Positions 11,690 to 61,764 of a stretch of DNA of 64,000 nt are shown piece after piece. Both the position numbers and the translations under genes were made by a program. The notes below the pieces were generated by a model. The model was not told where the DNA came from. It saw only the letters and a list, made by a program, of their open reading frames with translations, and did not search any database. Source of the stretch: a virus; IMG/VR virus record IMGVR_UViG_3300021963_009388, positions 38,496 through 102,495 of that record, one strand, 5' to 3'. The stretch's first letter is position 1; every line of letters starts with the position of its first letter.

Positions 11690-11704
11690 TTCAAATCTAA
11701 ATAC

Positions 11705-11732
11705 TTAATTCGAGCTAAAATCGCGTCATAAT
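11705..11732 (+). promoter_or_regulatory. cassette-opening promoter-like motif 1 (TTAATTCGAGCTAAAATCGCGTCATAAT)
   Basis: One of 8 copies of identical 28-bp length, TTAATYC...CATAAT; CATAAT resembles a -10 box. Confidence 0.75.
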
Positions 11733-11769
11733 CATTTGCTTCCCCCTTAGGAAGTAGAAGGAGGTCGTT

Positions 11770-11907
11770 ATGACCTTGTTTCTAACGATATGGCTATTTG
11801 CCATATTTTGCTATTTTTGCTTTGGAGCTTCAAAAGCTCCAAGTGTTAAAGCAGTTTCTTCTCTTTCCTCCGCTTTCAAAAGGAAGCGCAGGAGGCGAAG
11901 AAAATAA
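11770..11907 (+). CDS. 45-aa membrane peptide with polybasic tail (MTLFLTIWLFAIFCYFCFG...KRKRRRRRK); not in the ORF track
   Basis: GGAGG RBS 5 nt upstream; first ORF after the cassette promoter. Confidence 0.6.
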   Translation: MTLFLTIWLFAIFCYFCFGASKAPSVKAVSSLSSAFKRKRRRRRK

Positions 11908-11981
11908 GGACCGGGCGAAAGCCATAAAGACAGGGCTTCGGCCATATGGTTTCACATTTTTATCTACTTAAGGAGATGACT

Positions 11982-12641
11982 ATGGTAACTATTTCTTTGT
12001 CTTACTCCCCCGCTAGCCTCGGCTTCCCAGCTGGGGAACGTTTGTTTCCAGTCGGAAAAATCGGCGTTCTGGTGCTGTACCCCGACAACATAGTTGGGGT
12101 ATGGGGCCGCCGACCAGGCGGCTGGGTAAACCTGGTTGCCGGGGACCCCATCATTGAGCGTGGCCTCCTCAGGCCTATTCCCGCTTCGGCGGCGGCGGCG
12201 CAGACTTTCTTTGAGAAGGAAAGTCTGGTCATTGGGCCGTTGACAGGGCCTTTGGTATTACCTCGCTTAATGGCGAGGATCCCAGAGGGGTTTGATCCCG
12301 CCGATGCGGATCAGACTGCGTTGGAGAAGGCAGCCGGTTCGGATGACGGTGACGCAATGCTCTCGACGTTTGTTGAGAGTACGGTACGAGGCCCCGACGG
12401 CCTATTTGTTCCGAGGGGGTTCATCCCAGGGCCAGTGGCCCTGGAGGACGTTTTCGAAGACGTCGGAGGTTTAGTAGGGGACGACGGCGTCCCCAAAGTT
12501 CAGCAGGTAACCCTGCAGGAACTTAGAAAGGCCCGCCTAGCAAGGCTGGCCTTCACAAAGCAAGCCCCATCCCCAGCTTTTGGGGAGAGGGCGAAGTTCG
12601 TTAAATCGTTTAAGAAAGCCGTAGCTACCTTATACCGGTAG
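11982..12641 (+). CDS. hypothetical protein, GC-rich cassette cargo
   Basis: AAGGAG at 11970-11975 favours the ATG at 11982; visibly more GC-rich than the backbone. Confidence 0.65.
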   Translation: MVTISLSYSPASLGFPAGERLFPVGKIGVLVLYPDNIVGVWGRRPGGWVNLVAGDPIIERGLLRPIPASAAAAQTFFEKESLVIGPLTGPLVLPRLMARIPEGFDPADADQTALEKAAGSDDGDAMLSTFVESTVRGPDGLFVPRGFIPGPVALEDVFEDVGGLVGDDGVPKVQQVTLQELRKARLARLAFTKQAPSPAFGERAKFVKSFKKAVATLYR

Positions 12642-12947
12642 TCTACGTAGGGGGGGGATAACCAAGAAGCTCCAAGCGCTATGGTTCTTGGAACAACTTC
12701 TTGACTTCCCGGAGGTGGTGCGCCACATGGCTCCAACCCACAAGCCCGTGCAGAGTAAATACAAAACTCTGCATGAGCCTAGGTATTCTGATGCACCCTT
12801 ACTGGAGGGTGCATTTGGCGCGGCTCGTCCGCCGACGTAAAGACCTATAGAGGTTCATACGTTGAGACCCAGGTCGGGTGTTCGGCTAACGGCTTGAAGC
12901 CGTGAACACTAGCTTCATCGCTAGAGTGAGCGACCCGATAAACCAGG

Positions 12948-12999
12948 CCAATTCGTCATCTCGAAAAGAGGTGGCGAATTGGTTTTTTTTAGCTATTAG
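12948..12999 (+). terminator. intrinsic terminator plus cassette-closing T8-AGCTATTAG (cassette 1)
   Basis: CCAATTCGTCATCTC-GAAAA-GAGGTGGCGAATTGG hairpin followed by T8. Confidence 0.85.
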
Positions 13000-13007
13000 G
13001 TGATCAC

Positions 13008-13035
13008 TTAATTCAGAGGTAAATAGCGTCATAAT
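13008..13035 (+). promoter_or_regulatory. cassette promoter-like motif 2
   Basis: TTAATTCAGAGGTAAATAGCGTCATAAT. Confidence 0.75.
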
Positions 13036-13118
13036 AAGGTGAGTTAGTAGTAGCTATAGTCGCCCGTTCTGGGTCGAGTAGTATACGACGAACTCTTTCC
13101 TGGAAAGGGAAAATTGAT

Positions 13119-13316
13119 ATGGCTAACTCTTCGAAGACTGTACTCAGCTGTGTAAAAGTTAGTGGAGAGCAGTGGGCTTCACAGGTAGAGATGGCGATGG
13201 CGGGTGAAGCCATGCAAATAGCTCTAACTGAGAGGCGGCGCGGTTTAATAGCCGTGTCCCGCCGCTCCGACACAGGCATCGTCTATGAATCAGTATTCGA
13301 GGTATATGACGCGTAA
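13119..13316 (+). CDS. 65-aa hypothetical protein, cassette 2 cargo
   Basis: Only + strand ORF between promoter 2 and terminator 2; AAGGGA upstream. Confidence 0.55.
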   Translation: MANSSKTVLSCVKVSGEQWASQVEMAMAGEAMQIALTERRRGLIAVSRRSDTGIVYESVFEVYDA

Positions 13317-13333
13317 GCGTTGTATACCTCAGG

Positions 13334-13387
13334 CTACCAGAGCTTCCTTCACAGGGAAGCTCTGGTGGTATTTTTTTTAGCTATCAG
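13334..13387 (+). terminator. intrinsic terminator plus T8-AGCTATCAG (cassette 2)
   Basis: CTACCAGAGCTTCC...GGAAGCTCTGGTGG hairpin followed by T8. Confidence 0.85.
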
Positions 13388-13393
13388 ACACTT

Positions 13394-13516
13394 CTAAGGA
13401 TCTTCACCCATGACTAAATCTATAAGATGGGGTACTCCCAGCCACACTAGGTATACGGCTGACACCACATAAAACGTATCAGTTCTAAAACTTAAAATAT
13501 ATATAAGGGTTTCCAT
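13394..13516 (-). CDS. possible 40-aa hydrophobic peptide (METLIYILSFRTDTFYVVSAVYLVWLGVPHLIDLVMGEDP)
   Basis: Open frame converging on terminator 2; no clear RBS. Confidence 0.25.
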   Translation of the reverse strand: METLIYILSFRTDTFYVVSAVYLVWLGVPHLIDLVMGEDP

Positions 13517-13612
13517 GGTGCTTCAATCTTGTTATTTTAATATCATGTTGCTTATTATCCTTAGAAGAAGTAAAAAGAGTAAGTTTAATATTTAAATCAC
13601 GAAAGGCGAGCC

Positions 13613-14350
13613 ATGGCAGACACTAGACTAGCATCTGTTACAGGTGGATCTACTATAGACCATAACAGAAAGACCACTAAGATAATCGTCGATCCGCATG
13701 AGACAGACTCATTCGTAATCGATCTCTCAGCTATGAAATCTGCACAAACGTTTGAAGTTAAAGAGGATGGCAGTAAGGACTTAAGGAAACTAGAACAAAT
13801 AGAAAGATCTAAAATGATAGCCAACAGTTTAAGGAGATTTGCCAAGAGTACACCCGACAGCGCGCCTCCTAGCTTAGGCACTGTCTCAGGTACTGTAGAC
13901 GGCGGCAACCATGTTCATCCAGCTGCTCAGCTTCCAGAGTCGGCTGTGGCTCCACCTAACGTAAGGGTCTATTTTGATATGCCTGGTCTGGCTACTCTAA
14001 ACTACAGATATCACGGAGCAGCCGTAGTGCCTGGTTATCTCGTCCTCACCACCGATATGCGGTACTCAGGCCCAGGTGAGTTCTACCCATTTACTAGTAA
14101 GCTGGCTATAGAGACAGACGCCCGAATAGGCGTTATGGTTGATGGTATAGACAGCCTATTTCTAATAAAGCCTCCAACTATACAGCACAAGTTCGGACCT
14201 TACGAGCATTGCTTAGTTCCTATAGTTCAAGAGAAGGATCTTCCTCCTGAGCTGAAGGAAGGGCTAGTTCAAGATAAGCCAGAAGTAGTGGAGACGTCTC
14301 CACGACCAGTCGCTACTTCATCGTCAGATGCAGAAGACGGGGTGCTTTAA
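13613..14350 (+). CDS. hypothetical protein
   Basis: 245-aa ORF upstream of the probable portal. Confidence 0.75.
   Translation: MADTRLASVTGGSTIDHNRKTTKIIVDPHETDSFVIDLSAMKSAQTFEVKEDGSKDLRKLEQIERSKMIANSLRRFAKSTPDSAPPSLGTVSGTVDGGNHVHPAAQLPESAVAPPNVRVYFDMPGLATLNYRYHGAAVVPGYLVLTTDMRYSGPGEFYPFTSKLAIETDARIGVMVDGIDSLFLIKPPTIQHKFGPYEHCLVPIVQEKDLPPELKEGLVQDKPEVVETSPRPVATSSSDAEDGVL
14288..14303. repeat. 16-bp palindrome, copy 2 (perfect)
   Basis: Inside a CDS, encoding VETSP. Confidence 0.95.
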
Positions 14351-14392
14351 TCTTAATTTATTATAAGTGTAACCTAGGGGGCCTAGCCTAAC

Positions 14393-16327
14393 ATGTCAGA
14401 CTTTTCAGAAGGTGCTTTGGGCAAGGGCTGGGCTCTTAACGGAAAAGGTGATGAGCCTTTTCCAGATCCATTTATGGACTACGCCTCTACGGTCATGCCT
14501 GAGAATATCAGGGATGCCCTGAGGTATTGCGAGTTCATATTTAACTCCAACTCTATGATAAGAGAAGCAGCAAGAAGAGTTCTTAGCTACTTCATAACAG
14601 ACATAGAGGTTAAAGGCGTTGGCGGTAAGGACATCGGCGATGACGAGAGGGCTAAGTATGAGAGCTTCTTAAATGAAACTCTAGACATAAAGACCATTCT
14701 TCACTCTGTGGGTCTTGACCTCTTATGCTATGGTAATAGCTTTACCACTCTTGTAGTACCTTTTAGAAGGTACTTATCCTGCCCTCAGTGCTTTCTTGAC
14801 ATACCTCTTAAAGAAGCCATAAATAACAGTGCGTTCGCATTTAAGTGGAAGATGCCTGACTTTACATGTAACTGCCCTAGGTGCAAGTACACAGGTATAT
14901 GGAAGCGCACAGACAGAAGAACTAACGAGCCTGAAGAAGTACGAGTAAGAAGATGGCCAGCAGCTGAGATGGAGATAAGGTACGATCCAGTAAGGGATAA
15001 CCGTGACTATCTTTGGAGAATACCAGAAGACTATAGGCTGCAAGTAAGAAGAGGAGATCCTCAAATCTTAGAGACGGTACCTTGGGAAGTAGTAGAGGCA
15101 GTTGCAGCTAACGGCTTTCTTCTATTTGACAAGGGAGCCATATACCATATGTACGAGCCAACTCTGTCAGGGGTTAGGTCGAGAGGCTGGGGTATATCTA
15201 GAACTCTAGTTAACTTTAGACATGCTTGGTACTGTCAAGTGCTTCACCGATACAACGAAGCTATAGCTCTAGACTACGTCATACCATTTAGAGTTCTAAG
15301 CCCTCAACCACAGTCTAGCTCTCTGCCAGAGGCTGGGGACCCTTTAATGAACATGGACTTGGGCGGCCTTAGAGGTCAGGTCCAGGCTATGCTTAGAAAG
15401 AGAAGAAAGGATCCGGCTGCTTGGCACTTCCTTAGCACTCCTATTCAATATCAGATGCTCGGTGGAGAAGCAAGAAACCTTGCACCTACTGATCTATTAG
15501 AGTCAGGCATAACCAATCTTTTAAACGGGTTCGGTATGCCAGCTGAGCTGTACAGAGGCACTTTATCTTTGCAAGCAGCTCTACCAGCTATACGCCTTTT
15601 TGAGTCAAGCTGGGTATACTTAGTACACTCACTCAATGCTTTTCTGAGAGAGCTTACCAAAGACATAGGCGATGCGTTTGGCTGGGAGCCGGCTGTATGT
15701 AAACTCATAAGGCCTACTATGTTAGATGATGTTCAGCTCATCATGTCCAAGATGCAGCTTATGCAAGCTCAGCAGGTCAGCCAGACCGGCGTGCTTCGAA
15801 GCATGGGTATGGACTTCAAAGACGAGCAGAGGCAGATCATTCAGGAACAGAAGTTCACACAAGAGGAGCAGGCCAAGATGCAGGAGGAGATGGACAACTC
15901 TTCGCTTATGGAACAGATGGCTCCTCCTGTTATAGATCAGATGGCTCAGCAAGGAGGACAAGGCGGGCAGCCAGGTGGACAACCACCAGCTCCTCAAGGA
16001 TACGGCGCACCTGCAGCTCCAGCCGAAGGAGGAGGCGGCCAGCCACCTCAAGGACCAGCAGGCATGGCAGCACAAGGCATGTCTGTCGCTACTCCTACTA
16101 GCCCTAATCAGAAGGTTACTCCGCAAGACCTTCAAGCTAAGGCTCAAACATTGGCGGATCAGATGCTGGCTATGCCTGAATCTCAGCGTCAGTCAGAGAT
16201 GACCAAGCTCAAGTCTCAGGACCCAGTTATTCATAGTTTGGTTAAGCAGACCATAGGCAACATAAGACAGCAGGCTCAGACCGCTGGAGCTAGATCTATA
16301 ATGCAGCAGAAATACGGGGTAATGTAA
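14393..16327 (+). CDS. probable portal protein with Zn-ribbon insert and Gln/Pro/Gly-rich tail
   Basis: 644 aa; helical N-terminus, DLLCYGNSF and RGWGIS segments, CPQC...CPRC insert, low-complexity C-terminal tail. Portal call rests on architecture only. Confidence 0.5.
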   Translation: MSDFSEGALGKGWALNGKGDEPFPDPFMDYASTVMPENIRDALRYCEFIFNSNSMIREAARRVLSYFITDIEVKGVGGKDIGDDERAKYESFLNETLDIKTILHSVGLDLLCYGNSFTTLVVPFRRYLSCPQCFLDIPLKEAINNSAFAFKWKMPDFTCNCPRCKYTGIWKRTDRRTNEPEEVRVRRWPAAEMEIRYDPVRDNRDYLWRIPEDYRLQVRRGDPQILETVPWEVVEAVAANGFLLFDKGAIYHMYEPTLSGVRSRGWGISRTLVNFRHAWYCQVLHRYNEAIALDYVIPFRVLSPQPQSSSLPEAGDPLMNMDLGGLRGQVQAMLRKRRKDPAAWHFLSTPIQYQMLGGEARNLAPTDLLESGITNLLNGFGMPAELYRGTLSLQAALPAIRLFESSWVYLVHSLNAFLRELTKDIGDAFGWEPAVCKLIRPTMLDDVQLIMSKMQLMQAQQVSQTGVLRSMGMDFKDEQRQIIQEQKFTQEEQAKMQEEMDNSSLMEQMAPPVIDQMAQQGGQGGQPGGQPPAPQGYGAPAAPAEGGGGQPPQGPAGMAAQGMSVATPTSPNQKVTPQDLQAKAQTLADQMLAMPESQRQSEMTKLKSQDPVIHSLVKQTIGNIRQQAQTAGARSIMQQKYGVM

Positions 16328-20966: not shown

Positions 20967-20997
20967 GCTACTAGACCTTTTAATCAAGGAGTTGGAC

Positions 20998-22173
20998 ATG
21001 GCAAGTAGATACGACAATCTTAGTGTGGCTATTGAGGCCACAATTAACATTAGCAAGAAGACTAAGCCCTACAGAATAGTAGACATCGGAGTGGGTAGCG
21101 GCTCCAAGGCTGAGCTCATGGTTAAACTAGCTAAGAAGCTGGGAAGATCCAACATTGAATACTATGGGTTTGACTTTTTTGAAGACGTTACTGACCTTGT
21201 AGCATCCAGCGAGTTTGCTCTTGGAATAGGCGTAAGCAGAGATAAGGCCAGGGAAATGGTTTTAAAGTCTGGAGCTGCAAAGGCTCAGCTCATTAAAGGC
21301 AACACTAATCAAACTCTTGCTCAGGCTAAGAAAGACATACCTATCGCAGCTGTAGTGTGCGTAGATGGAGGAGCCTCTCCTACCACAATAGCAAATGACA
21401 TTGAAAACGCCCTAAGCTTTTGCTCTGAAGGCACTTACATGGTTATAACCAACTGTATTTCTTCGACCTACTACAGAGGATCTGCCTTCATCATTAAGTC
21501 AGCTGCTATGCTTAAGAAAGAGTACAGCATCACTATTGAAGAAGCAGGCCCAGTAGACGTAGTAAGTGATAAGTATTCAGATGGCACTATAGCCATTAGC
21601 TGTATCATTCTAAAGTGCGCAGCTCAGCTTACTCCAGCAAAGTTAGAAGGCTTAGCTCACAAGCTATTAGTGGAGGCGTCTCCACAAGCTGACCCTGAGC
21701 CACAAGAGTATGTTCCCGAAGTAAGCTTTGTTCCAGAACCACCTAAGGAAATACCTGTTGAACAGGAGGCCAGCGCACCTGCTGGAGAGTCATTTCCCCA
21801 GAGTTGCAGTGGTGATACCGACGTACAATCAGTTCGAGTATGCGAAAATAGCTGTGGAAAGTTGCCTGAAGAACACTGCGAATTGCCTAGTGATTCTTGT
21901 GGACGACGGGAGTCCTCAGTGGAACCCTGCGGACTGGTCAAAGTATCCGAAGAGCCAGATGCTAATACACCGGTTCCCGAAGAACGACAAGAACCTGACT
22001 CGGTCGTGGAACAAGGGAATACAGATAGCACTGCAGAACAAGTGCCAGATAATAGTGGCAGCGAACTCAGACCTGAAGTTCCCCCCGAACTGGACAAAGG
22101 GAATAATAGAAACGCTAGACGCAGGCGCAGGCGCGGTGGGGCCGATGACGAACGCTCCGGGGCACAGGACTAG
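20998..22173 (+). CDS. class I SAM methyltransferase-like protein with acidic linker; 3' part overlaps the GT2 frame
   Basis: IVDIGVGSG, YYGFDFFE and VDGG; AGGAG RBS before the ATG at 20998. Confidence 0.65.
   Translation: MASRYDNLSVAIEATINISKKTKPYRIVDIGVGSGSKAELMVKLAKKLGRSNIEYYGFDFFEDVTDLVASSEFALGIGVSRDKAREMVLKSGAAKAQLIKGNTNQTLAQAKKDIPIAAVVCVDGGASPTTIANDIENALSFCSEGTYMVITNCISSTYYRGSAFIIKSAAMLKKEYSITIEEAGPVDVVSDKYSDGTIAISCIILKCAAQLTPAKLEGLAHKLLVEASPQADPEPQEYVPEVSFVPEPPKEIPVEQEASAPAGESFPQSCSGDTDVQSVRVCENSCGKLPEEHCELPSDSCGRRESSVEPCGLVKVSEEPDANTPVPEERQEPDSVVEQGNTDSTAEQVPDNSGSELRPEVPPELDKGNNRNARRRRRRGGADDERSGAQD
21670..21685. repeat. 16-bp palindrome, copy 3 (GTGGAGGCGTCTCCAC, 1 mismatch)
   Basis: Inside a CDS, encoding VEASP. 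Confidence 0.85.
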
Positions 22174-24427: not shown

Positions 24428-24793
24428 ATGGATGTTCTAGCTGTACGACAAGAAGAGAAGCTATGGGGCCGCAACCATATCATTCATTTGGATAACTCCT
24501 TTCAGATCTGCCACATACACATCCTCAAAGGTGGATACTGCTCTAATCACTTTCACCAGCATAAGTGGAATCAATTCTATATTGTCTCGGGTAAGCTGGT
24601 GGTTATCTGCTACAACCCAGACGGCACTACAAAGAGCACCATCACTCTTAGGCCTACCGAGTGCATTAAGATACCTCCTGGTTTAAACCATAAGTTTGAA
24701 GCTTTAGAAGAGACTGAAGCTTTGGAGATCTATTGGTCTGAGCTATCTGAGCACGATATTGTGCGTACAGACATAGGTGGCATCAAGGCTTAA
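24428..24793 (+). CDS. cupin-domain protein (sugar isomerase-like)
   Basis: CSNHFHQHKWNQFYIVSG and IPPGLNHKF; its TAA stop lies inside cassette promoter 3. Confidence 0.75.
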   Translation: MDVLAVRQEEKLWGRNHIIHLDNSFQICHIHILKGGYCSNHFHQHKWNQFYIVSGKLVVICYNPDGTTKSTITLRPTECIKIPPGLNHKFEALEETEALEIYWSELSEHDIVRTDIGGIKA

Positions 24794-24817
24794 TTCAGCC
24801 CATAATAGCGTCATAAT
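24790..24817 (+). promoter_or_regulatory. cassette promoter-like motif 3
   Basis: TTAATTCAGCCCATAATAGCGTCATAAT. Confidence 0.75.
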
Positions 24818-24855
24818 GAAGTGAGTACGTAACTATTTAATAAGAGGAGTGCATT

Positions 24856-25059
24856 ATGCACGGATTTTACCAGTCGGTTGACGCTTCTAGAATACCAGCA
24901 GACCTGGGCATCGAAAGATGCCCGGTATGCAAAGGCATCGCTCGAAACTCAACGCTTGCATGTTCGACATGCAAGCGTGACGCAAAGCTCTGCCCTAAGT
25001 TTGCTCAAAAAGTAAAAGATACTGAAAAACTAAATGGCTGGAGCGACATAGTCGCCTAG
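24856..25059 (+). CDS. 67-aa Zn-finger protein, cassette 3 cargo
   Basis: CPVC...CSTC; GAGGAG RBS. Confidence 0.65.
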   Translation: MHGFYQSVDASRIPADLGIERCPVCKGIARNSTLACSTCKRDAKLCPKFAQKVKDTEKLNGWSDIVA

Positions 25060-25064
25060 CCATT

Positions 25065-25107
25065 CGTCCTGAGCAGGACGTTAACTTGCTCTTTTTTTAG
25101 CTATCAG
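25065..25107 (+). terminator. cassette 3 end: pseudoknot/hairpin plus T7-AGCTATCAG
   Basis: CGTCCTGAGCAGGACG-TTAAC-TTGCTC followed by T7. Confidence 0.65.
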
Positions 25108-25115
25108 CCATCCCC

Positions 25116-25143
25116 TTAATTCAACCTATAAGTGCGTCATAAT
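25116..25143 (+). promoter_or_regulatory. cassette promoter-like motif 4
   Basis: TTAATTCAACCTATAAGTGCGTCATAAT. Confidence 0.75.
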
Positions 25144-25149
25144 ATAATG

Positions 25150-25605
25150 ATACCGATAGGTATCGATGGTCCCATCGAGATAGCGACCTTAAAAGTACTC
25201 GTAAGCCCAACTGATTGTTCCATCAGGTTGGTAATATGGCCTAGGAACTTTATTAACGTCCATGCATGACGTTAAACTGCAGGTTCCCACTGACTGACAG
25301 TGGGCGGCTACCGGCCGGGGACGGATGTGGATGAAACTTCCACACTACGCCAAGTAACTACTGGCGTAGAATTTATCGGCATCTTAGTGAGGTGCACGTC
25401 TTGAGCAGGACGTTAAACTGCTTCATTTGAAGCTTATCGCTGGTGTCCTTAGTAAGACGTTAAACTGCTAACTGACCAATGAAGGCCCCACGGCCTAAGA
25501 ACAGTGGGAGGCTACCAGCCTTAGCAAGTGGGCGTGGATGAAACTTCCACAAAGAGGGATACATGAGGTCACCGGGTTAAACCCCGGTCTCATGTGTCTT
25601 TTTTT
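25150..25605 (+). ncRNA. putative ~450-nt structured non-coding RNA (cassette 4) with three pseudoknot repeats and two tri-hairpin modules
   Basis: No credible ORF; bounded by promoter and terminator; repeated modules with compensatory changes. Confidence 0.65.
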
Positions 25606-25614
25606 AGCTATTAG
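25558..25614 (+). terminator. intrinsic terminator plus T7-AGCTATTAG (cassette 4)
   Basis: GATACATGAG...CTCATGTGTC hairpin followed by T7. Confidence 0.8.
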
Positions 25615-25622
25615 CCCCTTCC

Positions 25623-25650
25623 TTAATTCAACCCCTAAATGCGTCATAAT
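25623..25650 (+). promoter_or_regulatory. cassette promoter-like motif 5
   Basis: TTAATTCAACCCCTAAATGCGTCATAAT. Confidence 0.75.
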
Positions 25651-25656
25651 ATAGTG

Positions 25657-25915
25657 TGGAGATATATATCTATGCGAAGCTTGTGACTTGTCCGAGCATC
25701 GCACCAGATGAATATATCTCGCCAGGCAGAATTCCCGTCGCCTGACTAGAAATAGTAAAAGGGATAGGCTAAGGTATAAACACGTAGCGAAAAGATGTAG
25801 GTTGGGCGACCTACAATATAAACAGATTAGCGATAATCGTTTATTTAATCTTTCTTACGGCGAATCTATCTTAGTAATTGTACACAGGGCTGAAAGGCTC
25901 TGTGTGCTTTTTTTT
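25657..25915 (+). ncRNA. putative ~260-nt multi-hairpin non-coding RNA (cassette 5)
   Basis: No credible ORF; stems GAGATATAT/ATATATCTC, CAGGC/GCCTG, TGTAGGT/ACCTACA and ATAAAC..GATT/AATCGTTTAT. Confidence 0.5.
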
Positions 25916-25924
25916 AGCTATCAG
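25880..25924 (+). terminator. intrinsic terminator plus T8-AGCTATCAG (cassette 5)
   Basis: GTACACAGGGCT-GAAA-GGCTCTGTGTGC followed by T8. Confidence 0.85.
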
Positions 25925-25978
25925 CCATTCATGTAATGGGTTACCATATATCTAACTCTTACTTGAGGTGACCATAAT

Positions 25979-26311
25979 ATGGAATGGCTAATCATTCTTG
26001 CAGTTATGTCCCTTTACTCAACCTCCCTAATGATGTGTTATAGCGACAGTACAAGGAACTCTTGGTACTACCCAATCTTTTCTTTAGGGTTTAGCCTTAT
26101 TGTTTCTACGCTATGGGTGACTGGTGTTAGGTATCTAGACAACAAAGACCGTATCTTTTTCTTTAGCCTTTGCTGGGAGTTTTCTGTAATATTTATTGAT
26201 TACACAATACCTCTTGTGTTTTTTGGTCTTAATGTTAATAAGTATGTAGTAATGGGCTCGTTCGTTGTAGCTGCGGGCTTAACCATTATGAAACTCAATA
26301 TGAAAGGCTAG
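25979..26311 (+). CDS. small integral membrane protein (about 4 TM, SMR/EamA-like size)
   Basis: 110 aa with four hydrophobic segments; GAGGTG RBS. Confidence 0.65.
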   Translation: MEWLIILAVMSLYSTSLMMCYSDSTRNSWYYPIFSLGFSLIVSTLWVTGVRYLDNKDRIFFFSLCWEFSVIFIDYTIPLVFFGLNVNKYVVMGSFVVAAGLTIMKLNMKG

Positions 26312-57274: not shown

Positions 57275-57919
57275 ATGGCCTACAGCAAAGAACAGGTGCA
57301 GAACCTTAAAGATAGTGCACAGCGGCAGGCAAACTTAGACTGGTGCATACAGCAGACTCTGCTGACTGGGAGATGTTTAGATGACGGCGAGCTTACAGGC
57401 ACTGCGCAGTGCAGAGCTTATAGGGCTGCCTTTCCCAATCCTGCAAGCCATTCTCGAGCCTACTACGCAGGCATTGCCGCTTTCCCGAGTTTGGTGTATC
57501 TCCACAACCCCTACTCTAAATCCTATGCCTCCTACGCGGTCAGCAATAGCCCCCTTAGCCCAGAGGCGGCCTTTGCTGCTGTACCCCCCTTCGTCGTCGA
57601 GGGGTCTGGGGTTTCTGCAGGAATAGGCTGCCCGTTTGCTTCCGCTGGCTCTACGGCAGCATCCCCTGGCTTTATAGCCAATGCAACATTTACATACGGA
57701 ACAGATGCGGCCGCTAACACAAGGGGAATAGCGGCAGCCACAGCGGCGGTTCAAGCCGCAGCAAACGCAGCCAATCTATCTAAAGAAAATTCCGACATCT
57801 TAATGAAAAAAATGATAGACGCTATAGCTAAAAGAGATTTGAACAAAAGACCCGCGACCAAGCCTACAGGTAATAAAGGCCCGGGTAAAAAGCCTTTAAC
57901 CAAATTAAAAGGAAAGTAG
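57275..57919 (+). CDS. paralogue-family protein
   Basis: ATFTYGTDAAANTRGIAA...LSKENSDILM...AI..RDL..LKGK C-terminal module. Confidence 0.7.
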   Translation: MAYSKEQVQNLKDSAQRQANLDWCIQQTLLTGRCLDDGELTGTAQCRAYRAAFPNPASHSRAYYAGIAAFPSLVYLHNPYSKSYASYAVSNSPLSPEAAFAAVPPFVVEGSGVSAGIGCPFASAGSTAASPGFIANATFTYGTDAAANTRGIAAATAAVQAAANAANLSKENSDILMKKMIDAIAKRDLNKRPATKPTGNKGPGKKPLTKLKGK

Positions 57920-57923
57920 TAAA

Positions 57924-57939
57924 GTGGAGACGTCTCCAC
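57924..57939. repeat. 16-bp palindrome, copy 9 (perfect), intergenic
   Basis: Shortly after a stop codon. Confidence 0.95.
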
Positions 57940-57991
57940 GGCGGTAGTTCGGTGTAACCCATAGCCGGGTTAATACCCGGTCGGAGTAACA

Positions 57992-58642
57992 ATGGCTAAA
58001 TTGCCTAAGGACCTTAACCCCGTACTTTTACCCATAAATGAGGCACAGCGAGAGTCAGAGAGAATATTTAATAAGAAGGACGTAATATTTCTTTTAGGGC
58101 CTGCAGGAACAGGCAAAACACATCAGGCAGTAAAGTTAGCGCTATCTACATATCTAAATGGAAAATGCCGTAGAATGATTCTATCAAGACCCATGGTTGA
58201 GTGCGGAGAGAAACTAGGCTTTCTTCCAGGCGACATTAATCAAAAGCTAGCCCCGTGGGTAGCTCCTATCGAAGATGTGCTTCGACGCATAACCACAACT
58301 AACCCTCAGGAAGTGATGAAATCTATGGAAATTGTCCCTCTGGCAGTGATGAGAGGAAGAACCTTTGATGACTGTGTCGCTATTCTTGATGAAGCACAGA
58401 ACTGCACATGGGAGCAGCTTAAGCTATTCATCACTAGGCTAGGTAAAAACGGCAAGCTCATCATATGCGGTGATCCTGACCAGAGTGATCTTAAATTCAA
58501 GAACTCTTTGGAGAGTTTTGCTAATTGCCTTGAAAATCTAGACTGCGTAGGGTATGTAAGGTTTGATGAAAGTATGATCGTACGGCATCCTTCACTGCTG
58601 TCTATAATTACAGCGATCAAGGATGAAGAAAGGAAAAGGTAA
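57992..58642 (+). CDS. phoH: PhoH-family ATPase
   Basis: GPAGTGKT, RPMVECGEKLGFLPGD, MRGRTF, LDEAQN, TRLG and GDPDQSD. Confidence 0.92.
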   Translation: MAKLPKDLNPVLLPINEAQRESERIFNKKDVIFLLGPAGTGKTHQAVKLALSTYLNGKCRRMILSRPMVECGEKLGFLPGDINQKLAPWVAPIEDVLRRITTTNPQEVMKSMEIVPLAVMRGRTFDDCVAILDEAQNCTWEQLKLFITRLGKNGKLIICGDPDQSDLKFKNSLESFANCLENLDCVGYVRFDESMIVRHPSLLSIITAIKDEERKR

Positions 58643-58646
58643 TCAA

Positions 58647-59081
58647 ATGGACAGCGGACTAGTAACCTCCATGACTTATGTACCTAAGTCATGGGGCAGG
58701 GAGATATGGGTAGTAAACACGAATAAGTACTGCGGTAAGTTTTTGCATATAAACAAAGGCATGTTCTGCAGCTTTCATTATCACAAGCTCAAAGAGGAAA
58801 CCTTTGTGGTCCTCTCTGGGAAGGTGATAATAGTTTACGCTGAGCAGAGCGAAGCCACTACTATCGCAGTAGGTAGTGTAGACTTTGAAGTGCCTAAGTC
58901 ACAGGAAACTCTTTACCCAGGGCAGGCTTGGCACATTAAGCCAGGAAGCGTGCACCAGTTCTATGGGGTAGAGGACTCTGTTATATTTGAAACGTCTACC
59001 GAACACTTCGACAGTGATTCCTATAGGTTGTCTACAGACTTTCAAGGTGTTACTGAGCCGTGGGTAGGCTGGGACGGGTAG
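58647..59081 (+). CDS. cupin-domain protein (paralogue of ORF 24428)
   Basis: KSWGREIW, CSFHYHKLKEETF and HQF...ETSTEHFDSDSYR. Confidence 0.75.
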   Translation: MDSGLVTSMTYVPKSWGREIWVVNTNKYCGKFLHINKGMFCSFHYHKLKEETFVVLSGKVIIVYAEQSEATTIAVGSVDFEVPKSQETLYPGQAWHIKPGSVHQFYGVEDSVIFETSTEHFDSDSYRLSTDFQGVTEPWVGWDG

Positions 59082-59083
59082 GC

Positions 59084-59740
59084 CTATATCTTTGTAAGTA
59101 TAGCAAACCCTTCCCAAACGTTGAGAGTGCCTATGTGCTTGTACTTTTCGCTTAGGTCGTAGATGGCTTTTCTAGTCATATCCCAGTTAGCGTCATGCAT
59201 CGTGACTATACACCCAGGATTAAGAACTGGGTGTATAGCATTAAGAACTGCCTTAGTTGGTTCTGTATTGTGATCAGCGTCGTAGAAGACTAGGTCTACG
59301 TTTTGTGCCTTACCTGCGAAATCAAACTCTAGCATGTTCTGGTCATAGATATCTACGAAGGCATTAACATCAAATTTAATCAGAGACTTAAGCATAATAA
59401 ACTTATCTGGAGAAGACCCTCCGGTCTTATCTCCTACAAACCAGTCAAGGCACGACAATCTTCTTTCTTTATTCGTGTGAGCGTCTTTACTGTCTTTAAT
59501 ACCTTTAGCCAGAAAAGCCGAGCTTCTCCCTCTCCACGACCCTATCTCTAAAACATTATTTGGCGCTAGCTTGGCTAGGTTATACAACATCCAGCACTCT
59601 ACTGGGTCTGGGCTATTATGAGCTCCTTCAGTGCCCGTATACATTTCTATAAGGGCTGGGTCCTTTAGCCACGAAGCTGGGTTTCTCTTCAATACAGGCG
59701 GGCACATAAGGGAAGTTACAGTATCTACAAATCTTTGCAT
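59084..59740 (-). CDS. class I SAM-dependent methyltransferase (Methyltransf_24-like)
   Basis: VLEIGSWRGRS, FYDADH and MHD. Confidence 0.82.
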   Translation of the reverse strand: MQRFVDTVTSLMCPPVLKRNPASWLKDPALIEMYTGTEGAHNSPDPVECWMLYNLAKLAPNNVLEIGSWRGRSSAFLAKGIKDSKDAHTNKERRLSCLDWFVGDKTGGSSPDKFIMLKSLIKFDVNAFVDIYDQNMLEFDFAGKAQNVDLVFYDADHNTEPTKAVLNAIHPVLNPGCIVTMHDANWDMTRKAIYDLSEKYKHIGTLNVWEGFAILTKI

Positions 59741-59809
59741 ATTCTCGACTCCATATAGGTTTCGTAATAATGTACTATTTTATCCCCTATATGGATACGC
59801 AGGGTTAGC

Positions 59810-59837
59810 TTAATTCATCGCCAAATAGGGTCATAAT
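59810..59837 (+). promoter_or_regulatory. cassette promoter-like motif 6
   Basis: TTAATTCATCGCCAAATAGGGTCATAAT. Confidence 0.72.
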
Positions 59838-59886
59838 TAGGTGAACCATGAGGGTTCATTTTTACCTCTTAGCAAAGGAGTGCATT

Positions 59887-60066
59887 ATGATGAGGATATC
59901 GATTTTGGCCTGGGCGCTTGCCATGGCCTACTTCTGCACTGGGTGCAGATGTTGTCAGAAGGTCTCCAATTCTGTGGAGACCACGTATCGTACCACGGTC
60001 AATCCGTGGGACGACAAAGTGATAGACAAGGTGGACTTGTCTATCACTGTGCGGAGATCATGGTAG
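59887..60066 (+). CDS. 59-aa putative lipoprotein, cassette 6 cargo
   Basis: AAGGAG RBS; MMRISILAWALAMAYFCTGC signal/lipobox-like N-terminus. Confidence 0.6.
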   Translation: MMRISILAWALAMAYFCTGCRCCQKVSNSVETTYRTTVNPWDDKVIDKVDLSITVRRSW

Positions 60067-60080
60067 AATCCATGATCTCT

Positions 60081-60119
60081 AGCCAGGTTGAAATGACCTG
60101 GCTTTTTTTTAGCTATCAG
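60081..60119 (+). terminator. intrinsic terminator plus T8-AGCTATCAG (cassette 6)
   Basis: AGCCAGGTT-GAAAT-GACCTGGCT followed by a T-run. Confidence 0.85.
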
Positions 60120-60130
60120 GAGGATATCTA

Positions 60131-60907
60131 ATGGAAGTGAGATTCACATCTAAAGATGTACGAGGATCAAGCACTAAAGGGGGACGGTTCTGGAAAGAGT
60201 ATAAGACATGGCAAAGGACAATGGCCAAGTGTTATAACCCTAACCATCACAGATACTCAAACTATGGAGCTAAAGGTTTAACCGTGGATGACCTGTTCAG
60301 GTATAGCTTTTTAAACTTCCTAAATGAAATAGGAGAATGCCCTGAGCCTAAAGCTGAATACAGCATAGAGAGAATAGACAATGCTTTAGGGTACTTGTCT
60401 GGCAATATAGCTTGGCTTAAAATTCCTCTTCAAGCCCTTAATAAGACCAATAATAAGTTAGTAAAGTATAAAGGCAAGGAGCTTCCTTTGTCCGTACTCT
60501 GTAAAGACCTCAACGTAAACTATGAAACAGTGAGTACTCGGCTTGGTAGAGGCCATAGCTTAGAGGAGTCCTTGACTCAAGGAAGGTTAAAAAGCAAGGC
60601 TAGATTTGTAGTGTACAACTCTAAAAAAATGAGACTTAGAGGACTGGTTACTCTTCTTAAACTTAACTACGACAAAGCCATGCGCCTTTTTAATCAGGGC
60701 TATACCGGAGACGAGATAGCAGAAAACCCAATAGCCTACATAATTGCTAACCCTATTCTTCACTCTTACAGAGACAAGAGTATGACGATTACTGACTGGG
60801 CTAAGCATTTAGGCATAAGCAGAACTACTCTGGAGACTAAGTTAAAGAAGGGCCTATCTATAGGCTTTATTTGTGATATGTACTTAAACCGTCCCCTTGA
60901 CGAATAG
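60131..60907 (+). CDS. HNH-type homing endonuclease-like protein with C-terminal HTH repeats
   Basis: YKTWQRTMAKCYNP...YGAKGLTV...SIERIDNALGY..GNIAW...QALNK; three small DNA-binding repeats. Confidence 0.78.
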   Translation: MEVRFTSKDVRGSSTKGGRFWKEYKTWQRTMAKCYNPNHHRYSNYGAKGLTVDDLFRYSFLNFLNEIGECPEPKAEYSIERIDNALGYLSGNIAWLKIPLQALNKTNNKLVKYKGKELPLSVLCKDLNVNYETVSTRLGRGHSLEESLTQGRLKSKARFVVYNSKKMRLRGLVTLLKLNYDKAMRLFNQGYTGDEIAENPIAYIIANPILHSYRDKSMTITDWAKHLGISRTTLETKLKKGLSIGFICDMYLNRPLDE

Positions 60908-60910
60908 GGC

Positions 60911-60938
60911 TTAATCCAGCCCATAATTGCGGCATAAT
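60911..60938 (+). promoter_or_regulatory. cassette promoter-like motif 7
   Basis: TTAATCCAGCCCATAATTGCGGCATAAT. Confidence 0.68.
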
Positions 60939-61018
60939 TAGGTGTATGCGGTAGTGTTCAGAAGCTCATGGAGTTTTTGCACCGCTGTAGCGTCTACACG
61001 GAAAGGAGTACCACTATT

Positions 61019-61447
61019 ATGTGGATACTTATGCTGGCGATAGCTGCCATGCCTGCTCCACCGGCAGACATGTCCGAGAAGGCAGCTGCAAAAGCTGCCT
61101 TCTACAAAGGGGCAGACCTCTCCCTGTGTAAGGGAGAGGTTTACGAGTCCTTTAGGGACTCTTTCAAAGACTCTTTCAAAGAGTCTTTCAAAAAGTCGTC
61201 GGGGAAGGCTCCGACGGCTATGTTCACCGACGCGGCCGCCGCGACGGCCTGGACGGTGATGATGCCATTACTTTTTCCGGGATTAAAAGGCCCGGAGATG
61301 GCAGATCTGCTAGATGACCCATCTGATCGCAGATGGGTTCCGGCCCTGAGCCGGACAGGCGCGTTTATGCGCCAAATCCAGGCAGGTTGCCTGGAACTCG
61401 GCCGCCAAGGCGTCAAGTTTCCCCGGCAGGCTTACCTGCCGGATTAA
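61019..61447 (+). CDS. GC-rich protein with signal-peptide-like N-terminus, cassette 7 cargo
   Basis: AAGGAG RBS; MWILMLAIAA; SF(R/K)(D/E) 4-aa repeats. Confidence 0.62.
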   Translation: MWILMLAIAAMPAPPADMSEKAAAKAAFYKGADLSLCKGEVYESFRDSFKDSFKESFKKSSGKAPTAMFTDAAAATAWTVMMPLLFPGLKGPEMADLLDDPSDRRWVPALSRTGAFMRQIQAGCLELGRQGVKFPRQAYLPD

Positions 61448-61450
61448 AAC

Positions 61451-61501
61451 AAATCACCTCCAGTTCTTAGGAACATGGAGGTGATTTTTTTTAGCTATTA
61501 G
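61451..61501 (+). terminator. intrinsic terminator plus T8-AGCTATTAG (cassette 7)
   Basis: AAATCACCTCCA...TGGAGGTGATTT hairpin. Confidence 0.85.
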
Positions 61502-61508
61502 GTACCCC

Positions 61509-61536
61509 TTAATTCAACCCATAAGAGTGTCATAAT
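61509..61536 (+). promoter_or_regulatory. cassette promoter-like motif 8
   Basis: TTAATTCAACCCATAAGAGTGTCATAAT. Confidence 0.72.
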
Positions 61537-61612
61537 AAGATGAATAGGTAGCAATCACACATATCTGTGTGTGGGGCTATCTACATTAAGCTTATTTAGA
61601 GAGAGGTGACAC

Positions 61613-61714
61613 GTGAAAATTGAACAGGTGATCCTATATGGCCTATGCGCGGCCACAATGGTTTTGCCCGCATACGTCGGGATCTGCATACTCAGGGTCG
61701 CCCTGGGTATGTAA
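61613..61714 (+). CDS. 33-aa single-TM peptide (MKIEQVILYGLCAATMVLPAYVGICILRVALGM), cassette 8 cargo; not in the ORF track
   Basis: GAGGTGA RBS, GTG start; stop abuts the terminator. Confidence 0.55.
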   Translation: MKIEQVILYGLCAATMVLPAYVGICILRVALGM

Positions 61715-61764
61715 AAAGAACCTCCAGTCCTTCGGGACATGGAGGTTCTTTTTTTAGCTATCAG
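61713..61764. terminator. bidirectional terminator plus T7-AGCTATCAG (cassette 8 / nrdJ)
   Basis: AAAAAGAACCTCCAGTCC-TTCG-GGACATGGAGGTTCTTTTTTT. Confidence 0.85.

What the first reader, a model, noticed from the sequence alone, without database searches (positions are those of the whole stretch)
11704..61764. Eight standardised promoter-cargo-terminator cassettes in three arrays: a candidate phage gene/ncRNA cassette system
Seen in sequence: eight units at 11705-12999, 13008-13387, 24790-25107, 25116-25614, 25623-25924, 59810-60119, 60911-61501 and 61509-61764. Each opens with C plus an exactly 28-bp motif TTAATYC-N13-(G/T)G(T/G)CATAAT and closes with a hairpin, T7-8 and AGCTAT(C/T)AG. Adjacent units are joined by only 7-8 nt (GTGATCAC, CCATCCCC, CCCCTTCC, GTACCCC). 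The AGCTATYAG tail is not needed for intrinsic termination. It is present after the last unit of each array and absent before the first, so it belongs to the unit's right end. Cargoes are unrelated (membrane peptides, Zn finger, lipoprotein, GC-rich ORFs, non-coding RNAs), and the arrays are wedged between core genes; motif 3 even overlaps the cupin stop codon. Inference: these are interchangeable early-expression modules whose conserved ends act as recombination or capture sites. That is integron-like in logic and reminiscent of early-promoter repeat shuffling in T4-like phages, but with a different signature. No integrase is visible in the window.
Basis: partly seen in the sequence, partly recalled or inferred. 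Interest (0 to 1): 0.92.

Follow-up and report, generated by a model that had tools for sequence, protein, structure and literature searches.

The report
Standardised swappable gene cassettes in phage
An uncultured freshwater phage keeps its small accessory genes and RNAs in eight self-contained units with the same promoter in front and the same terminator-plus-tag behind, and related strains swap the contents between these fixed ends, much as T4-type phages do with their 'PeSL' cassettes.

Summary
Each closes with a hairpin, T7-8 and AGCTATYAG. A weight matrix scores the eight sites at 37-50 bits and the next best site in the 102-kb record at 2 bits.

Relatives 190 kb long carry the same two ends at the same three places. 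The full terminator-tail-promoter junction occurs in IMG/VR only in this clade.

Cargo differs between relatives, and homology breaks at the inner edges of the conserved ends. A lake strain 99.4% identical in the core has the SD and ORF of unit 3 replaced by 294 other bases. A relative at 87-89% identity has different cargo in unit 7 and lacks unit 8.

No tyrosine or serine recombinase and no sigma factor were found in five records. An HNH-endonuclease-like gene sits inside one junction.

This is best read as a PeSL-like (T4-type) composite terminator-promoter cassette system in an unrelated phage clade, not an integron. New here are the invariant post-terminator tail, kept even in a relative whose marker protein is 42% identical, and the non-coding RNA cargo.

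This scan has already noted PeSL-like arrays on other DNA, in at least 82 other genomes.

The parts
11704..12999 (+). Unit 1. Promoter motif 11705-11732, a 45-aa membrane peptide ORF (11770-11907), a 231-aa GC-rich ORF (11946-12641), then hairpin, T8 and AGCTATTAG (12983-12999).
   Evidence: The cargo has homologues in six relatives at the same site (tblastx family F0). GC is 0.53 against 0.44 for the genome.
13007..13387 (+). Unit 2. Promoter 13008-13035, 65-aa ORF 13119-13316, then hairpin, T8 and AGCTATCAG (13371-13387).
   Evidence: It is present in G006 and in lake strain X3. It is absent from G001, G002, L004, L006, L007 and L008, which have one unit here.
24789..25107 (+). Unit 3. Promoter 24790-24817, overlapping the cupin stop codon; 67-aa Cys-rich zinc-ribbon-like ORF 24856-25059; then a pseudoknot-like terminator, T7 and AGCTATCAG (25092-25107).
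   Evidence: Weak DZR_2 hit, E 9e-4. In strain X3, positions 24837-25064 are replaced by 294 other bases.
25115..25614 (+). Unit 4. Promoter 25116-25143, about 450 nt of non-coding, internally repeated, structured RNA cargo, then T7 and AGCTATTAG (25599-25614).
   Evidence: No ORF with an SD. Fold z-score -4.8. No Rfam match. Homologous units are the first unit in L006 and the second in L007. Highest RNA-contig depth, 63.
25622..25924 (+). Unit 5. Promoter 25623-25650, about 250 nt of non-coding cargo, then T8 and AGCTATCAG (25908-25924).
   Evidence: Fold z-score -6.0. In strain X3 a contig diverges right after the promoter, at 25651.
59809..60119 (+). Unit 6. Promoter 59810-59837, small lipoprotein-like ORF (59848-60066), then T8 and AGCTATCAG (60103-60119).
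   Evidence: The cargo is conserved in G001 (family F3) and the whole region in G006. Its terminator hairpin sits at the end of array 2 in strains X3 and X9.
60131..60907 (+). A 258-aa HNH-endonuclease-like protein with three C-terminal beta-hairpin plus helix-turn-helix repeats. It is inserted in a cassette junction: its SD starts right after the tail, and the next promoter starts 3 nt after its stop codon.
   Evidence: phrog_3377, E 1.3e-42. Weak HTH hits. Repeat structure in the model. Single copy and syntenic in G001, G002 and G006; absent from G005.
60910..61501 (+). Unit 7. Promoter 60911-60938, leader shared with other cassettes, 159-aa ORF 60968-61447, then T8 and AGCTATTAG (61485-61501).
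   Evidence: In G006 the cargo is replaced between 60982 and 61443.
61508..61764 (+). Unit 8. Promoter 61509-61536, 33-aa membrane peptide ORF 61613-61714, then T7 and AGCTATCAG (61749-61764).
   Evidence: The unit is absent from G006. G001 has a unit at this position with other cargo.
1282..2493 (+). UvsX-like recombinase gene, a candidate for the homologous-recombination activity that would act on the short conserved ends.
   Evidence: phrog_97, E 2.2e-11. Its role here is inferred only.

Best explanation
The eight units are autonomous transcription units for accessory cargo: small membrane, lipoprotein-like and zinc-ribbon-like proteins, ORFans, and two structured non-coding RNAs. They are built on one expression standard.

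Each starts with a promoter of sigma-70-like geometry (TTAATT-N16-CATAAT, with conserved extra blocks: C at -36, ATAA in the spacer, GYGT before the -10, and TG 5-6 nt after it). A short leader that often forms a 5' hairpin follows. Each ends with a strong intrinsic terminator and an invariant tag, AGCTAT-Y-R-N.

Head to tail, terminator, tag, a 4-19-nt linker and the next promoter form a composite junction. This is the PeSL arrangement of T4-type phages.

Shown:
- The ends are exclusive to these units.
- They sit at three fixed hot spots in all relatives.
- Cargo is replaced, gained and lost between relatives, with homology ending at the inner edges of the promoter-leader and terminator modules.

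Inferred:
- The exchange is homologous or microhomology recombination between the conserved ends during mixed infection. The phage's own recombination system (a UvsX-like protein) would carry it out, not a site-specific recombinase.
- The terminators insulate neighbouring genes, so insertions are tolerated.
- The tag has a function of its own that is still unknown. It could re-start or condition transcription downstream, bind a factor, or mark a processing or cleavage site.
For: Exclusivity:
- The eight sites score 37-50 bits against 2 bits for the next best.
- T-run plus tail occurs 8 of 8 times at unit ends, and the other terminator-like sites lack it.
- Whole-record scans of relatives place tails only at three loci: G001 has 9 and G005 has 5 exact matches plus 2 variants seen later. 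Nearly all promoter motifs lie there too, with controls at 0.
- In all of IMG/VR the full junction occurs only in 8 contigs of this clade.

Cargo exchange at three depths of divergence:
- Lake strain X3 has 88 differences over 14.3 kb of core. Positions 24837-25064 (SD plus ORF of unit 3) are replaced by 294 nt. The promoter plus 19 nt and the terminator are kept. Unit 5's promoter is followed by other cargo. The last unit of array 2 carries the terminator hairpin of window unit 6.
- G006 (87-89% nt identity) loses homology from about 72 nt after the start of promoter 7 up to the terminator hairpin, and unit 8 is missing.
- In the relatives at about 70% nt identity, array 2 holds 3-5 or more units, mostly unique. 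L006 starts with the homologue of window unit 4, which is a whole-unit difference.

Mosaic modules:
- The same terminator hairpin family and the same leader occur with unrelated cargo and in different arrays.

Function rather than recent copying:
- Pairwise identity of the 28-bp motif is 0.76 within genomes and 0.73 between them. For the tail it is 0.91 and 0.89. For the hairpins it is about 0.29.

Other points:
- No tyrosine or serine recombinase in five records.
- A UvsX-like gene is present.
- Six relatives' contigs end inside array 2.
- The PeSL definition and its mini-circle evidence are in PMC2839356 and PMC4122927.
Against: - No transcription start, 3' end or timing was measured. The RNA evidence is contig depth from one metatranscriptome of a relative and cannot show start, end or strand.
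- The conserved blocks are short: about 16 nt of T-run plus tail and 8-10 nt promoter blocks. The 28-bp motif is only about 75% identical between units, which makes a poor substrate for classical homologous recombination.
- Several of the observed swaps could equally arise from ordinary recombination in the long flanking core between phages that already differ in cargo. That shows exchange but not that the ends are the crossover points.
- Units 1 and 6 are conserved and syntenic, so the standard is first of all an expression format.
- The host, and the polymerase or sigma factor that reads the promoter, are unknown. The motif is absent from the putative early region, which sits badly with a general host-type early promoter.
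- The tail has no demonstrated role.
Confidence: 0.68

Rival explanations
1. The motifs are only a conserved promoter class and terminator class, a private expression standard for accessory genes. They play no part in recombination. Cargo turnover at the three hot spots is the usual turnover of non-essential DNA between core blocks. The breakpoints look as if they sit at the ends only because the ends are the only conserved sequence there.
For: - There is no excess similarity of ends within a genome.
- Units 1 and 6 are conserved and syntenic.
- The promoter and tail are kept in distant relatives where cargo is also kept.
- The conserved blocks are short.
- No recombinase was found.
Against: - Whole-unit differences match promoter-to-promoter or terminator-to-terminator spans.
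- The same leader and terminator modules are joined to unrelated cargo and occur in different arrays.
- In a 99.4%-identical strain, exactly SD plus ORF is replaced inside a retained frame.
- PeSL junctions of the same design were shown experimentally to recombine (PMC2839356).
Confidence: 0.2
2. This is a nuclease-driven cassette exchange system. The HNH-like protein with three HTH repeats, encoded inside a junction of array 3, recognises a conserved end (the tail or the promoter) and cuts it. Repair from a co-infecting genome then copies in foreign cassettes. That would be homing applied to a standard junction, an integron-like outcome without an integrase.
For: - The gene sits exactly in a junction. 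The tail is followed at once by its SD, and its stop codon by the next promoter 3 nt later.
- It matches phrog_3377 'HNH endonuclease' at E 1e-42.
- It has three DNA-binding-type repeats.
- It is single copy and syntenic in the relatives that share the canonical promoter.
- The tail is conserved far beyond what termination needs.
Against: - G005 keeps the tail and the cassette layout but lacks this gene.
- The position that aligns with the catalytic His of the HNH motif reads E-R-I-D in all ten homologues (reading it as the catalytic position rests on my own knowledge of HNH motifs).
- The N-terminal domain could not be modelled with confidence and no fold match was found.
- No cleavage site is known.
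- Its identity to relatives (85, 64, 50%) looks vertical, not like a mobile homing gene.
Confidence: 0.08
3. This is an integron-like site-specific capture system. The conserved ends would be attachment sites for a dedicated recombinase encoded elsewhere.
For: The units are tandem and one-directional with conserved boundaries and unrelated cargo.
Against: - No tyrosine or serine recombinase in five records, two of them 91-92% complete.
- Every cassette has its own promoter, unlike integron cassettes.
- The hairpins are ordinary variable terminators, not attC-like sites.
- Homology breaks lie at the cargo-side edges of the modules, not at one fixed point in the tail or linker.
Confidence: 0.03

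Closest known systems
PeSLs (promoter-early stem-loops), the composite terminator/promoter cassettes of T4-type myoviruses (Arbiol et al. 2010, PMC2839356; Comeau et al. 2014, PMC4122927)
   Same: - A terminator stem-loop is directly followed by a conserved sigma-70-like promoter, SD and ATG.
- The elements flank small ORFans.
- They cluster in variable regions between core blocks.
- Insertions, deletions and replacements between relatives occur at the elements.
- Transcriptional insulation is proposed to make insertions harmless.
   Different: - The phage clade is unrelated. None of its presumed virion proteins hits a PHROG family.
- The standard is much stricter: information across 37 positions and a fixed 4-8 or 18-19-nt linker.
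- An invariant AGCTAT-Y-R-N tag follows the T-run. PeSLs are not described with one.
- There are only three hot spots per 190-kb genome, two of them between large, conserved, gene-dense blocks, rather than dozens of elements in early hyperplastic regions.
- Some cargo is non-coding RNA.
- Mini-circles were not tested here.
Morons of lambdoid phages
   Same: - Self-contained promoter-gene-terminator units lie between conserved genes.
- Some cargo has deviant base composition: units 1 and 7 have GC 0.52-0.54 against 0.44.
- They are present or absent between relatives.
   Different: - Morons have no shared standard ends and do not form arrays.
- The classic cases are expressed from prophages, and no lysogeny gene was seen here.
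Integrons
   Same: One-directional tandem cassettes with unrelated cargo and conserved boundaries.
   Different: There is no integrase, no attI or attC, and no single common promoter. Each unit has its own promoter and terminator.
Free-standing homing endonucleases of T4-type phages (seg and mob genes; from my own knowledge)
   Same: An HNH-like gene with modular HTH DNA-binding repeats, without its own promoter or terminator, is inserted in an intergenic junction.
   Different: It is syntenic in relatives at 50-85% identity, so it is not sporadic. Its catalytic motif is doubtful and no target is known.

Membership tests
PeSL cassettes (T4-type phages) | Composite element: a terminator stem-loop immediately upstream of a conserved sigma-70-like promoter, followed by SD and start codon. 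| tested here: met
   Hairpin, T7-9, tail, a 4-19-nt linker and TTAATT-N16-CATAAT are seen at 24 distinct junctions. Leaders carry an SD and ATG in the coding units.
PeSL cassettes (T4-type phages) | Elements cluster in variable regions between conserved core blocks and flank small ORFans. | tested here: met
   There are three hot spots at conserved positions in G000, G001, G002, G005 and G006. Cargo is almost all without family hits.
PeSL cassettes (T4-type phages) | Insertions, deletions and replacements between close relatives map to the elements. | tested here: met
   Strain X3, 99.4% identical. G006 at 87-89%. L006 and L007 whole-unit differences.
PeSL cassettes (T4-type phages) | Recombination between neighbouring elements yields mini-circles or deletions. 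| not testable with these tools
   Only assembled contigs of public runs could be laid, with no raw reads. No circular junction could be sought. This needs inverse PCR or long reads.
PeSL cassettes (T4-type phages) | The promoter is an early promoter read by unmodified host RNA polymerase. | not testable with these tools
   The geometry is sigma-70-like, but the host is unknown. The motif is absent from the small-gene region at the 5' end of the record. No sigma gene was found.
PeSL cassettes (T4-type phages) | The host genome is a T4-like myovirus. | tested here: not met
   18 of the 20 larger proteins tested hit no PHROG family. Only the RNR and the UvsX-like protein did. So this works like a PeSL system but lies outside the group in which PeSLs were defined.
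Integron | IntI-type tyrosine recombinase next to the array. | tested here: not met
   PF00589 gives 0 of 5 records while the controls hit in 14 of 14. PF00239 gives 0 of 5.
Integron | Promoterless cassettes, each ending in an attC site, expressed from a common Pc promoter. | tested here: not met
   Every unit has its own promoter and an ordinary terminator of variable sequence.
Moron | An extra gene with its own promoter and terminator, present in some relatives and absent in others, often with deviant composition. | tested here: met
   Unit 2 is present in the window, G006 and X3 and absent in six relatives. Unit 8 is absent in G006. GC is 0.52-0.54 in units 1 and 7.
HNH homing endonuclease (for ORF 60131-60907) | HNH (beta-beta-alpha metal) catalytic motif with the catalytic His. 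| tested here: inconclusive
   PHROG HNH families hit at E 1e-42 to 1e-14. No Pfam HNH hit. The motif reads E-R-I-D-N...N...N with Arg invariant. The N-terminal model has pLDDT below 50, and no fold match was found.

The most novel reading that the evidence does not exclude
The invariant AGCTAT-Y-R-N tag could be an active signal that makes the cassettes a true plug-in system. It might be the target of the junction-encoded HNH/HTH protein or of another factor that opens the junction for cassette exchange. Or it might be a re-start or processing signal that makes every inserted unit polarity-neutral for the genes downstream. In either case the phage clade would maintain a dedicated, sequence-coded docking standard for accessory genes, beyond passive homology as in PeSLs.
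Probability: 0.12. Interest if true: 0.8.

Novelty: new variant of a known kind. Interest (0 to 1): 0.45.

Why it matters
The finding extends PeSL-type modular shuffling, so far described in T4-like phages, to an unrelated and widespread clade of large freshwater phages. It does so with an unusually clean signature: the promoter and the terminator-plus-tag are found almost only on these units.

That makes the accessory gene pool of the clade easy to enumerate from metagenomes, since anything between the two ends is cargo. Public metagenomes already show strain-level cargo replacement.

The tag is conserved more deeply than any terminator needs to be. It is a concrete, testable candidate for a new transcriptional or recombinational signal. 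The two abundant non-coding cargo RNAs are candidates for phage regulatory RNAs.

As natural parts, the promoter and terminator pair could also serve as a compact insulated expression unit once the host is known.

Tried and rejected
- Megablast of 20 kb against GenBank phages found no match.
- Rfam over the whole window at gathering thresholds, and over 24700-26000 at E up to 1, found nothing. There are no tRNAs.
- The metagenome scan with the 416-aa glycosyltransferase/methyltransferase returned 80 loci. Only two isolated tail-like strings and scattered loose promoter-regex hits turned up, with no paired unit, and few terminators in the ten loci examined.
- The viral scan with the HNH-like protein gave only one locus, L023.
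Their structure is known only from the read laying tables.
- The loose end at 13392 in X3 and X9 runs into the right flank of array 3. I first read it as relocation of unit 2. The shared part may be only the T-run plus tail (about 20 nt), so I do not count it.
- The joint 25616 to 25907 rests on sides of 29-33 nt and is also not counted.
- RNA contigs cover only part of the stretch, and parts without cover say nothing.
- The conserved intergenic motif CATGTTGCTTATT after array 1 is a single-copy element, not a promoter class.
- No second promoter class was evident in the intergenic regions by eye.
- The T5+AGCTATCAG in L006 and L007 at about 3.4 kb lies inside a coding region and has no hairpin, so it is chance.
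- The structure model of the HNH-like protein has mean pLDDT 63 with a poor N-terminus. Foldseek against the PDB found nothing at E up to 0.001, and the sequence search of the PDB found nothing.
- Sigma70_r2 (PF04542) was absent from five records. Single-subunit and multi-subunit phage RNA polymerases were not searched.
- The promoter geometry T(A/T)AA-N18-CATAA resembles flagellar-type sigma-28 promoters (TAAA-N15-GCCGATAA, from memory). This was not tested and is not relied on.

Full report
**Observation**

The 28-bp motif is TTAATYC-N12-KGKCATAAT. The N13 written in the finding gives no match. N12 with up to two mismatches recovers all eight, against 0.3 expected by chance.

T7+AGCTATYAG occurs exactly eight times, always as the 3' end of a unit. 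AGCTATYAG alone occurs ten times against 3.07 expected, and the two extra copies are inside ORFs.

The window is bases 38496-102495 of a single 102,495-bp virus record with 44% GC. There are no further copies in the first 38 kb.

A weight matrix built from 38 distinct copies extends the motif to 37 positions: C, TTAATYC, a spacer block ATAA, GYGTCATAAT, then NNNN-TG. It scores the eight sites at 37-50 bits and the next best site in the record at 2 bits.

Of the terminator-like sites in the record (hairpin of -9 kcal/mol or better, then T6 or more), the eight strongest + strand sites in the window are the unit ends. The few others (genome positions 5702 and 38354) lack the tail. So promoter and tail are strictly paired, 8 of 8.

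**Content of the units**

- Unit 1 carries a 45-aa membrane peptide and a GC-rich 231-aa ORF.
- Unit 2 carries a 65-aa ORF.
- Unit 3 carries a 67-aa Cys-rich protein with a weak double-zinc-ribbon hit.
- Unit 6 carries a lipoprotein-like peptide.
- Unit 7 carries a 159-aa ORF.
- Unit 8 carries a 33-aa membrane peptide.
- Units 4 and 5 have no ORF with a ribosome-binding site. They fold far better than shuffled sequence (z -4.8 and -6.0) and have no Rfam match.

What the finding text omits is ORF 60131-60907. It splits the third array. Its SD begins directly after the tail of unit 6, and the promoter of unit 7 begins 3 nt after its stop codon. It matches PHROG 'HNH endonuclease' families (E 1.3e-42). 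It has three C-terminal beta-hairpin plus helix-turn-helix repeats.

**Relatives**

A conserved 644-aa protein (14393-16327, no family hit) was used as a marker. It found 14 IMG/VR loci at 42-86% amino-acid identity.

The relatives at 80-86% identity carry the same promoter and the same T-run plus tail at the same places. Whole-record scans show that the large relatives have tails only at three loci that correspond to the window's three arrays:

- G001 is 190 kb and CheckV-92% complete.
- G005 is 190 kb and 91% complete.
- G006 is 181 kb.

Nearly all promoter motifs lie there too. G001 has nine in the arrays and one elsewhere, and reversed-pattern controls give zero.

In G005 (marker 66% identical) the spacer of the promoter has diverged. 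The -35 and -10 blocks and the tail are kept, with linkers of 4-7 nt.

The unit upstream of the marker gene keeps a promoter variant (TAAAT...CGTCATAAT) and the tail in the 66% relatives. A terminator followed by AGCTATTGG is still there in a relative whose marker is only 42% identical.

A scan of all IMG/VR for T7+AGCTAT, 9-30 nt, TTAATYC gave 50 stretches. Only those from eight contigs of this clade continue into the full promoter, so the rest are chance. The standard is clade-specific.

**Cargo turnover**

By tblastx, the cargo of unit 1 is homologous in seven records and that of unit 6 in the window and G001. G006 keeps the unit 6 region at 89% nt identity. Most other cargos are singletons.

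Array 2 differs in every genome, with three to five or more units. The first unit of L006 is the homologue of window unit 4, so the window has one whole extra unit in front. Unit 2 is present in the window, G006 and strain X3 but absent from six relatives.

G006 is 87-89% identical to the window at the nucleotide level. In array 3 the homology runs through unit 6, the HNH-like gene, promoter 7 and about 45 nt of leader. It stops at 60982 and resumes at the terminator hairpin (61443). Unit 8 is missing.

The closest comparison comes from public runs. A lake-water strain (X3) has a 63-kb contig with 88 differences over 14.3 kb of the window. In it:

- Positions 24837-25064, exactly the SD and ORF of unit 3, are replaced by 294 other bases.
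- The promoter plus 19 nt and the terminator are retained.
- Unit 4 has a 93-nt deletion, and the contig ends at unit 4's tail.
- A small contig with unit 5's promoter diverges immediately after it.
- The 15.9-kb contig that covers the right flank of array 2 enters it from a terminator hairpin 29/30 identical to that of window unit 6, which lies in array 3 in the window.

The contigs of six relatives end inside array 2. This is what repeats or strain heterogeneity would cause.

**Mosaic modules**

One terminator family (GTCCTGAGCAGGACGTTAAACTGCTC-T7) closes seven units with unrelated cargo. Another (CACCTCCAG...GGAGGTG) occurs in arrays 2 and 3. One leader (…GTGTTCAGGAGCTCA) heads units with different cargo in arrays 2 and 3 of G001 and unit 7 of the window. 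One long junction (tail AGCTATCAC, an 18-nt linker, promoter TTAATTGG...) joins different neighbours in three genomes.

The ends are no more alike within a genome than between genomes. Identity is 0.76 against 0.73 for the promoter and 0.91 against 0.89 for the tail, while hairpins are at random level. The similarity of the ends is therefore held by function, not by recent copying.

**Mechanism**

The layout is terminator stem-loop, then a conserved sigma-70-like promoter, then SD and ATG. That is what Arbiol et al. (PMC2839356) and Comeau et al. (PMC4122927) define as a PeSL. They showed indels and replacements at PeSLs and, by inverse PCR, circles formed by recombination between neighbouring PeSLs. 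They left open whether a helper protein is involved.

The data here fit that model. The units are insulated transcription units, and the exchanges have their homology limits at the conserved modules.

No tyrosine or serine recombinase is present in five records, and a UvsX-like recombinase is encoded. So I take homologous or microhomology recombination in mixed infections as the most likely route.

This step is inferred. The conserved blocks are short, and some swaps could come from crossovers in the long core flanks.

The integron reading fails its defining tests: there is no integrase and no attC, and every cassette has its own promoter.

**The tail**

Intrinsic termination does not need a fixed sequence after the T-run (general knowledge). 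Yet AGCTAT is invariant in all 39 units examined bar one variant (AGCCGT). It survives where hairpins, spacers and cargo have all changed.

It always follows a terminator and never precedes the first promoter of an array. After unit 6 it abuts the SD of the HNH-like gene.

Linkers to the next promoter fall into two groups, 4-8 nt (15 junctions) and 18-19 nt (8 junctions, but only two sequence families). They differ by about one helical turn, which is a weak hint of a face-dependent interaction with the next promoter.

I cannot decide between four roles: a transcriptional re-start or processing signal, a factor-binding site, a termination enhancer, or a cleavage or recombination site.

The HNH-like protein is a candidate partner, but three things count against it. 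G005 keeps the tail without that gene. The HNH-like motif reads E-R-I-D with Arg invariant. Its N-terminal domain could be neither modelled nor matched.

**Expression**

Only contigs of one lake metatranscriptome from a relative were available. Their depth is 63 and 45 over units 4 and 5, and 21 over the end of unit 1 and unit 2. Over the neighbouring genes it is 0-6. Several RNA contigs run into sequencing adapter at 12947, 25556 and 25860, which indicates short fragments.

This is compatible with abundant small RNAs from the non-coding units. It shows neither start, end, strand nor timing, so 'early' remains an assumption. The motif's absence from the small-gene region at the start of the record argues that it is a private promoter class rather than the general early promoter.

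**Verdict**

This is a PeSL-like composite terminator-promoter cassette system in an uncultured, widespread freshwater phage clade unrelated to T4-likes. Its holders come from 15 studies, mostly lake water. It is a new variant of a known kind.

Earlier notes of this scan describe PeSL-like arrays in at least 82 other genomes, so the general phenomenon is not rare. The distinctive points here are the exclusivity and strictness of the standard, the deeply conserved tag, the RNA cargo, and the nuclease-like gene in a junction.

Noticed in passing
window 5961, 14290, 27292, 35127, 43123, 53232, 57229, 57926 and others; L018, L004 and L008 linkers: A 16-bp palindrome, GTGGAGACGTCTCCAC, is dispersed through the record. 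The 12-bp core occurs 15 times with up to 1 mismatch, in coding and non-coding DNA. In relatives G001, L004 and L008 it sits inside the cassette linkers (tail, N4, palindrome, TTAATCC).
   Followed up: partly
window 21662-21687: AGCTATTAG is directly followed by a near-copy of the palindrome (GTGGAGGCGTCTCCAC) inside the methyltransferase ORF 20992-22173. This is the same tail-plus-palindrome combination as in the cassette linkers of relatives. It may be a relic junction or chance.
   Followed up: no
window 25065-25090, 25256-25282, 25396-25422, 25445-25470: Repeated element (G/A)TCC...GACGTTAAACTGC, able to form two overlapping hairpins or a small pseudoknot. One copy is the terminator of unit 3, and the same terminator closes six further units with unrelated cargo in relatives. 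Three copies lie inside the non-coding unit 4, which is itself an internal duplication (about 25286-25350 against 25487-25550).
   Followed up: partly
window 13530-13570: An intergenic motif, ATCATGTTGCTTATT...CAGTAAAA, lies about 150-220 nt after array 1. It is conserved in relatives at about 70% nt identity but is single copy in the genome. It may be the regulatory region of the downstream conserved genes.
   Followed up: partly
G001:C1:183432-183459(-) and G006:C1:65160-65187(-): Extra copies of the promoter motif (TAAATT...GCGTCATAAT) lie outside the three arrays and have no nearby tail terminator. They fall in parts of the genome that the window's record lacks.
   Followed up: no
L018:7322-8119(-) (array 2 of G001): One cassette cargo in a relative is a 265-aa protein with an FGE-sulfatase (formylglycine-generating enzyme-like) domain, E 1.3e-6. 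It is the only cargo with a cellular-type domain.
   Followed up: no
whole record; G001, G005, G006: Relatives are 181-190 kb at 88-92% estimated completeness, while the window's record is 102 kb. The window's record is probably a fragment of a roughly 200-kb genome. None of 18 larger ORFs tested outside RNR and UvsX hit a PHROG family, so the clade is very poorly characterised.
   Followed up: partly
window 11705-12999 and 60911-61501: The cargo of units 1 and 7 is GC-rich (0.52-0.54 against 0.44 for the genome), as expected for DNA of foreign origin.
   Followed up: no
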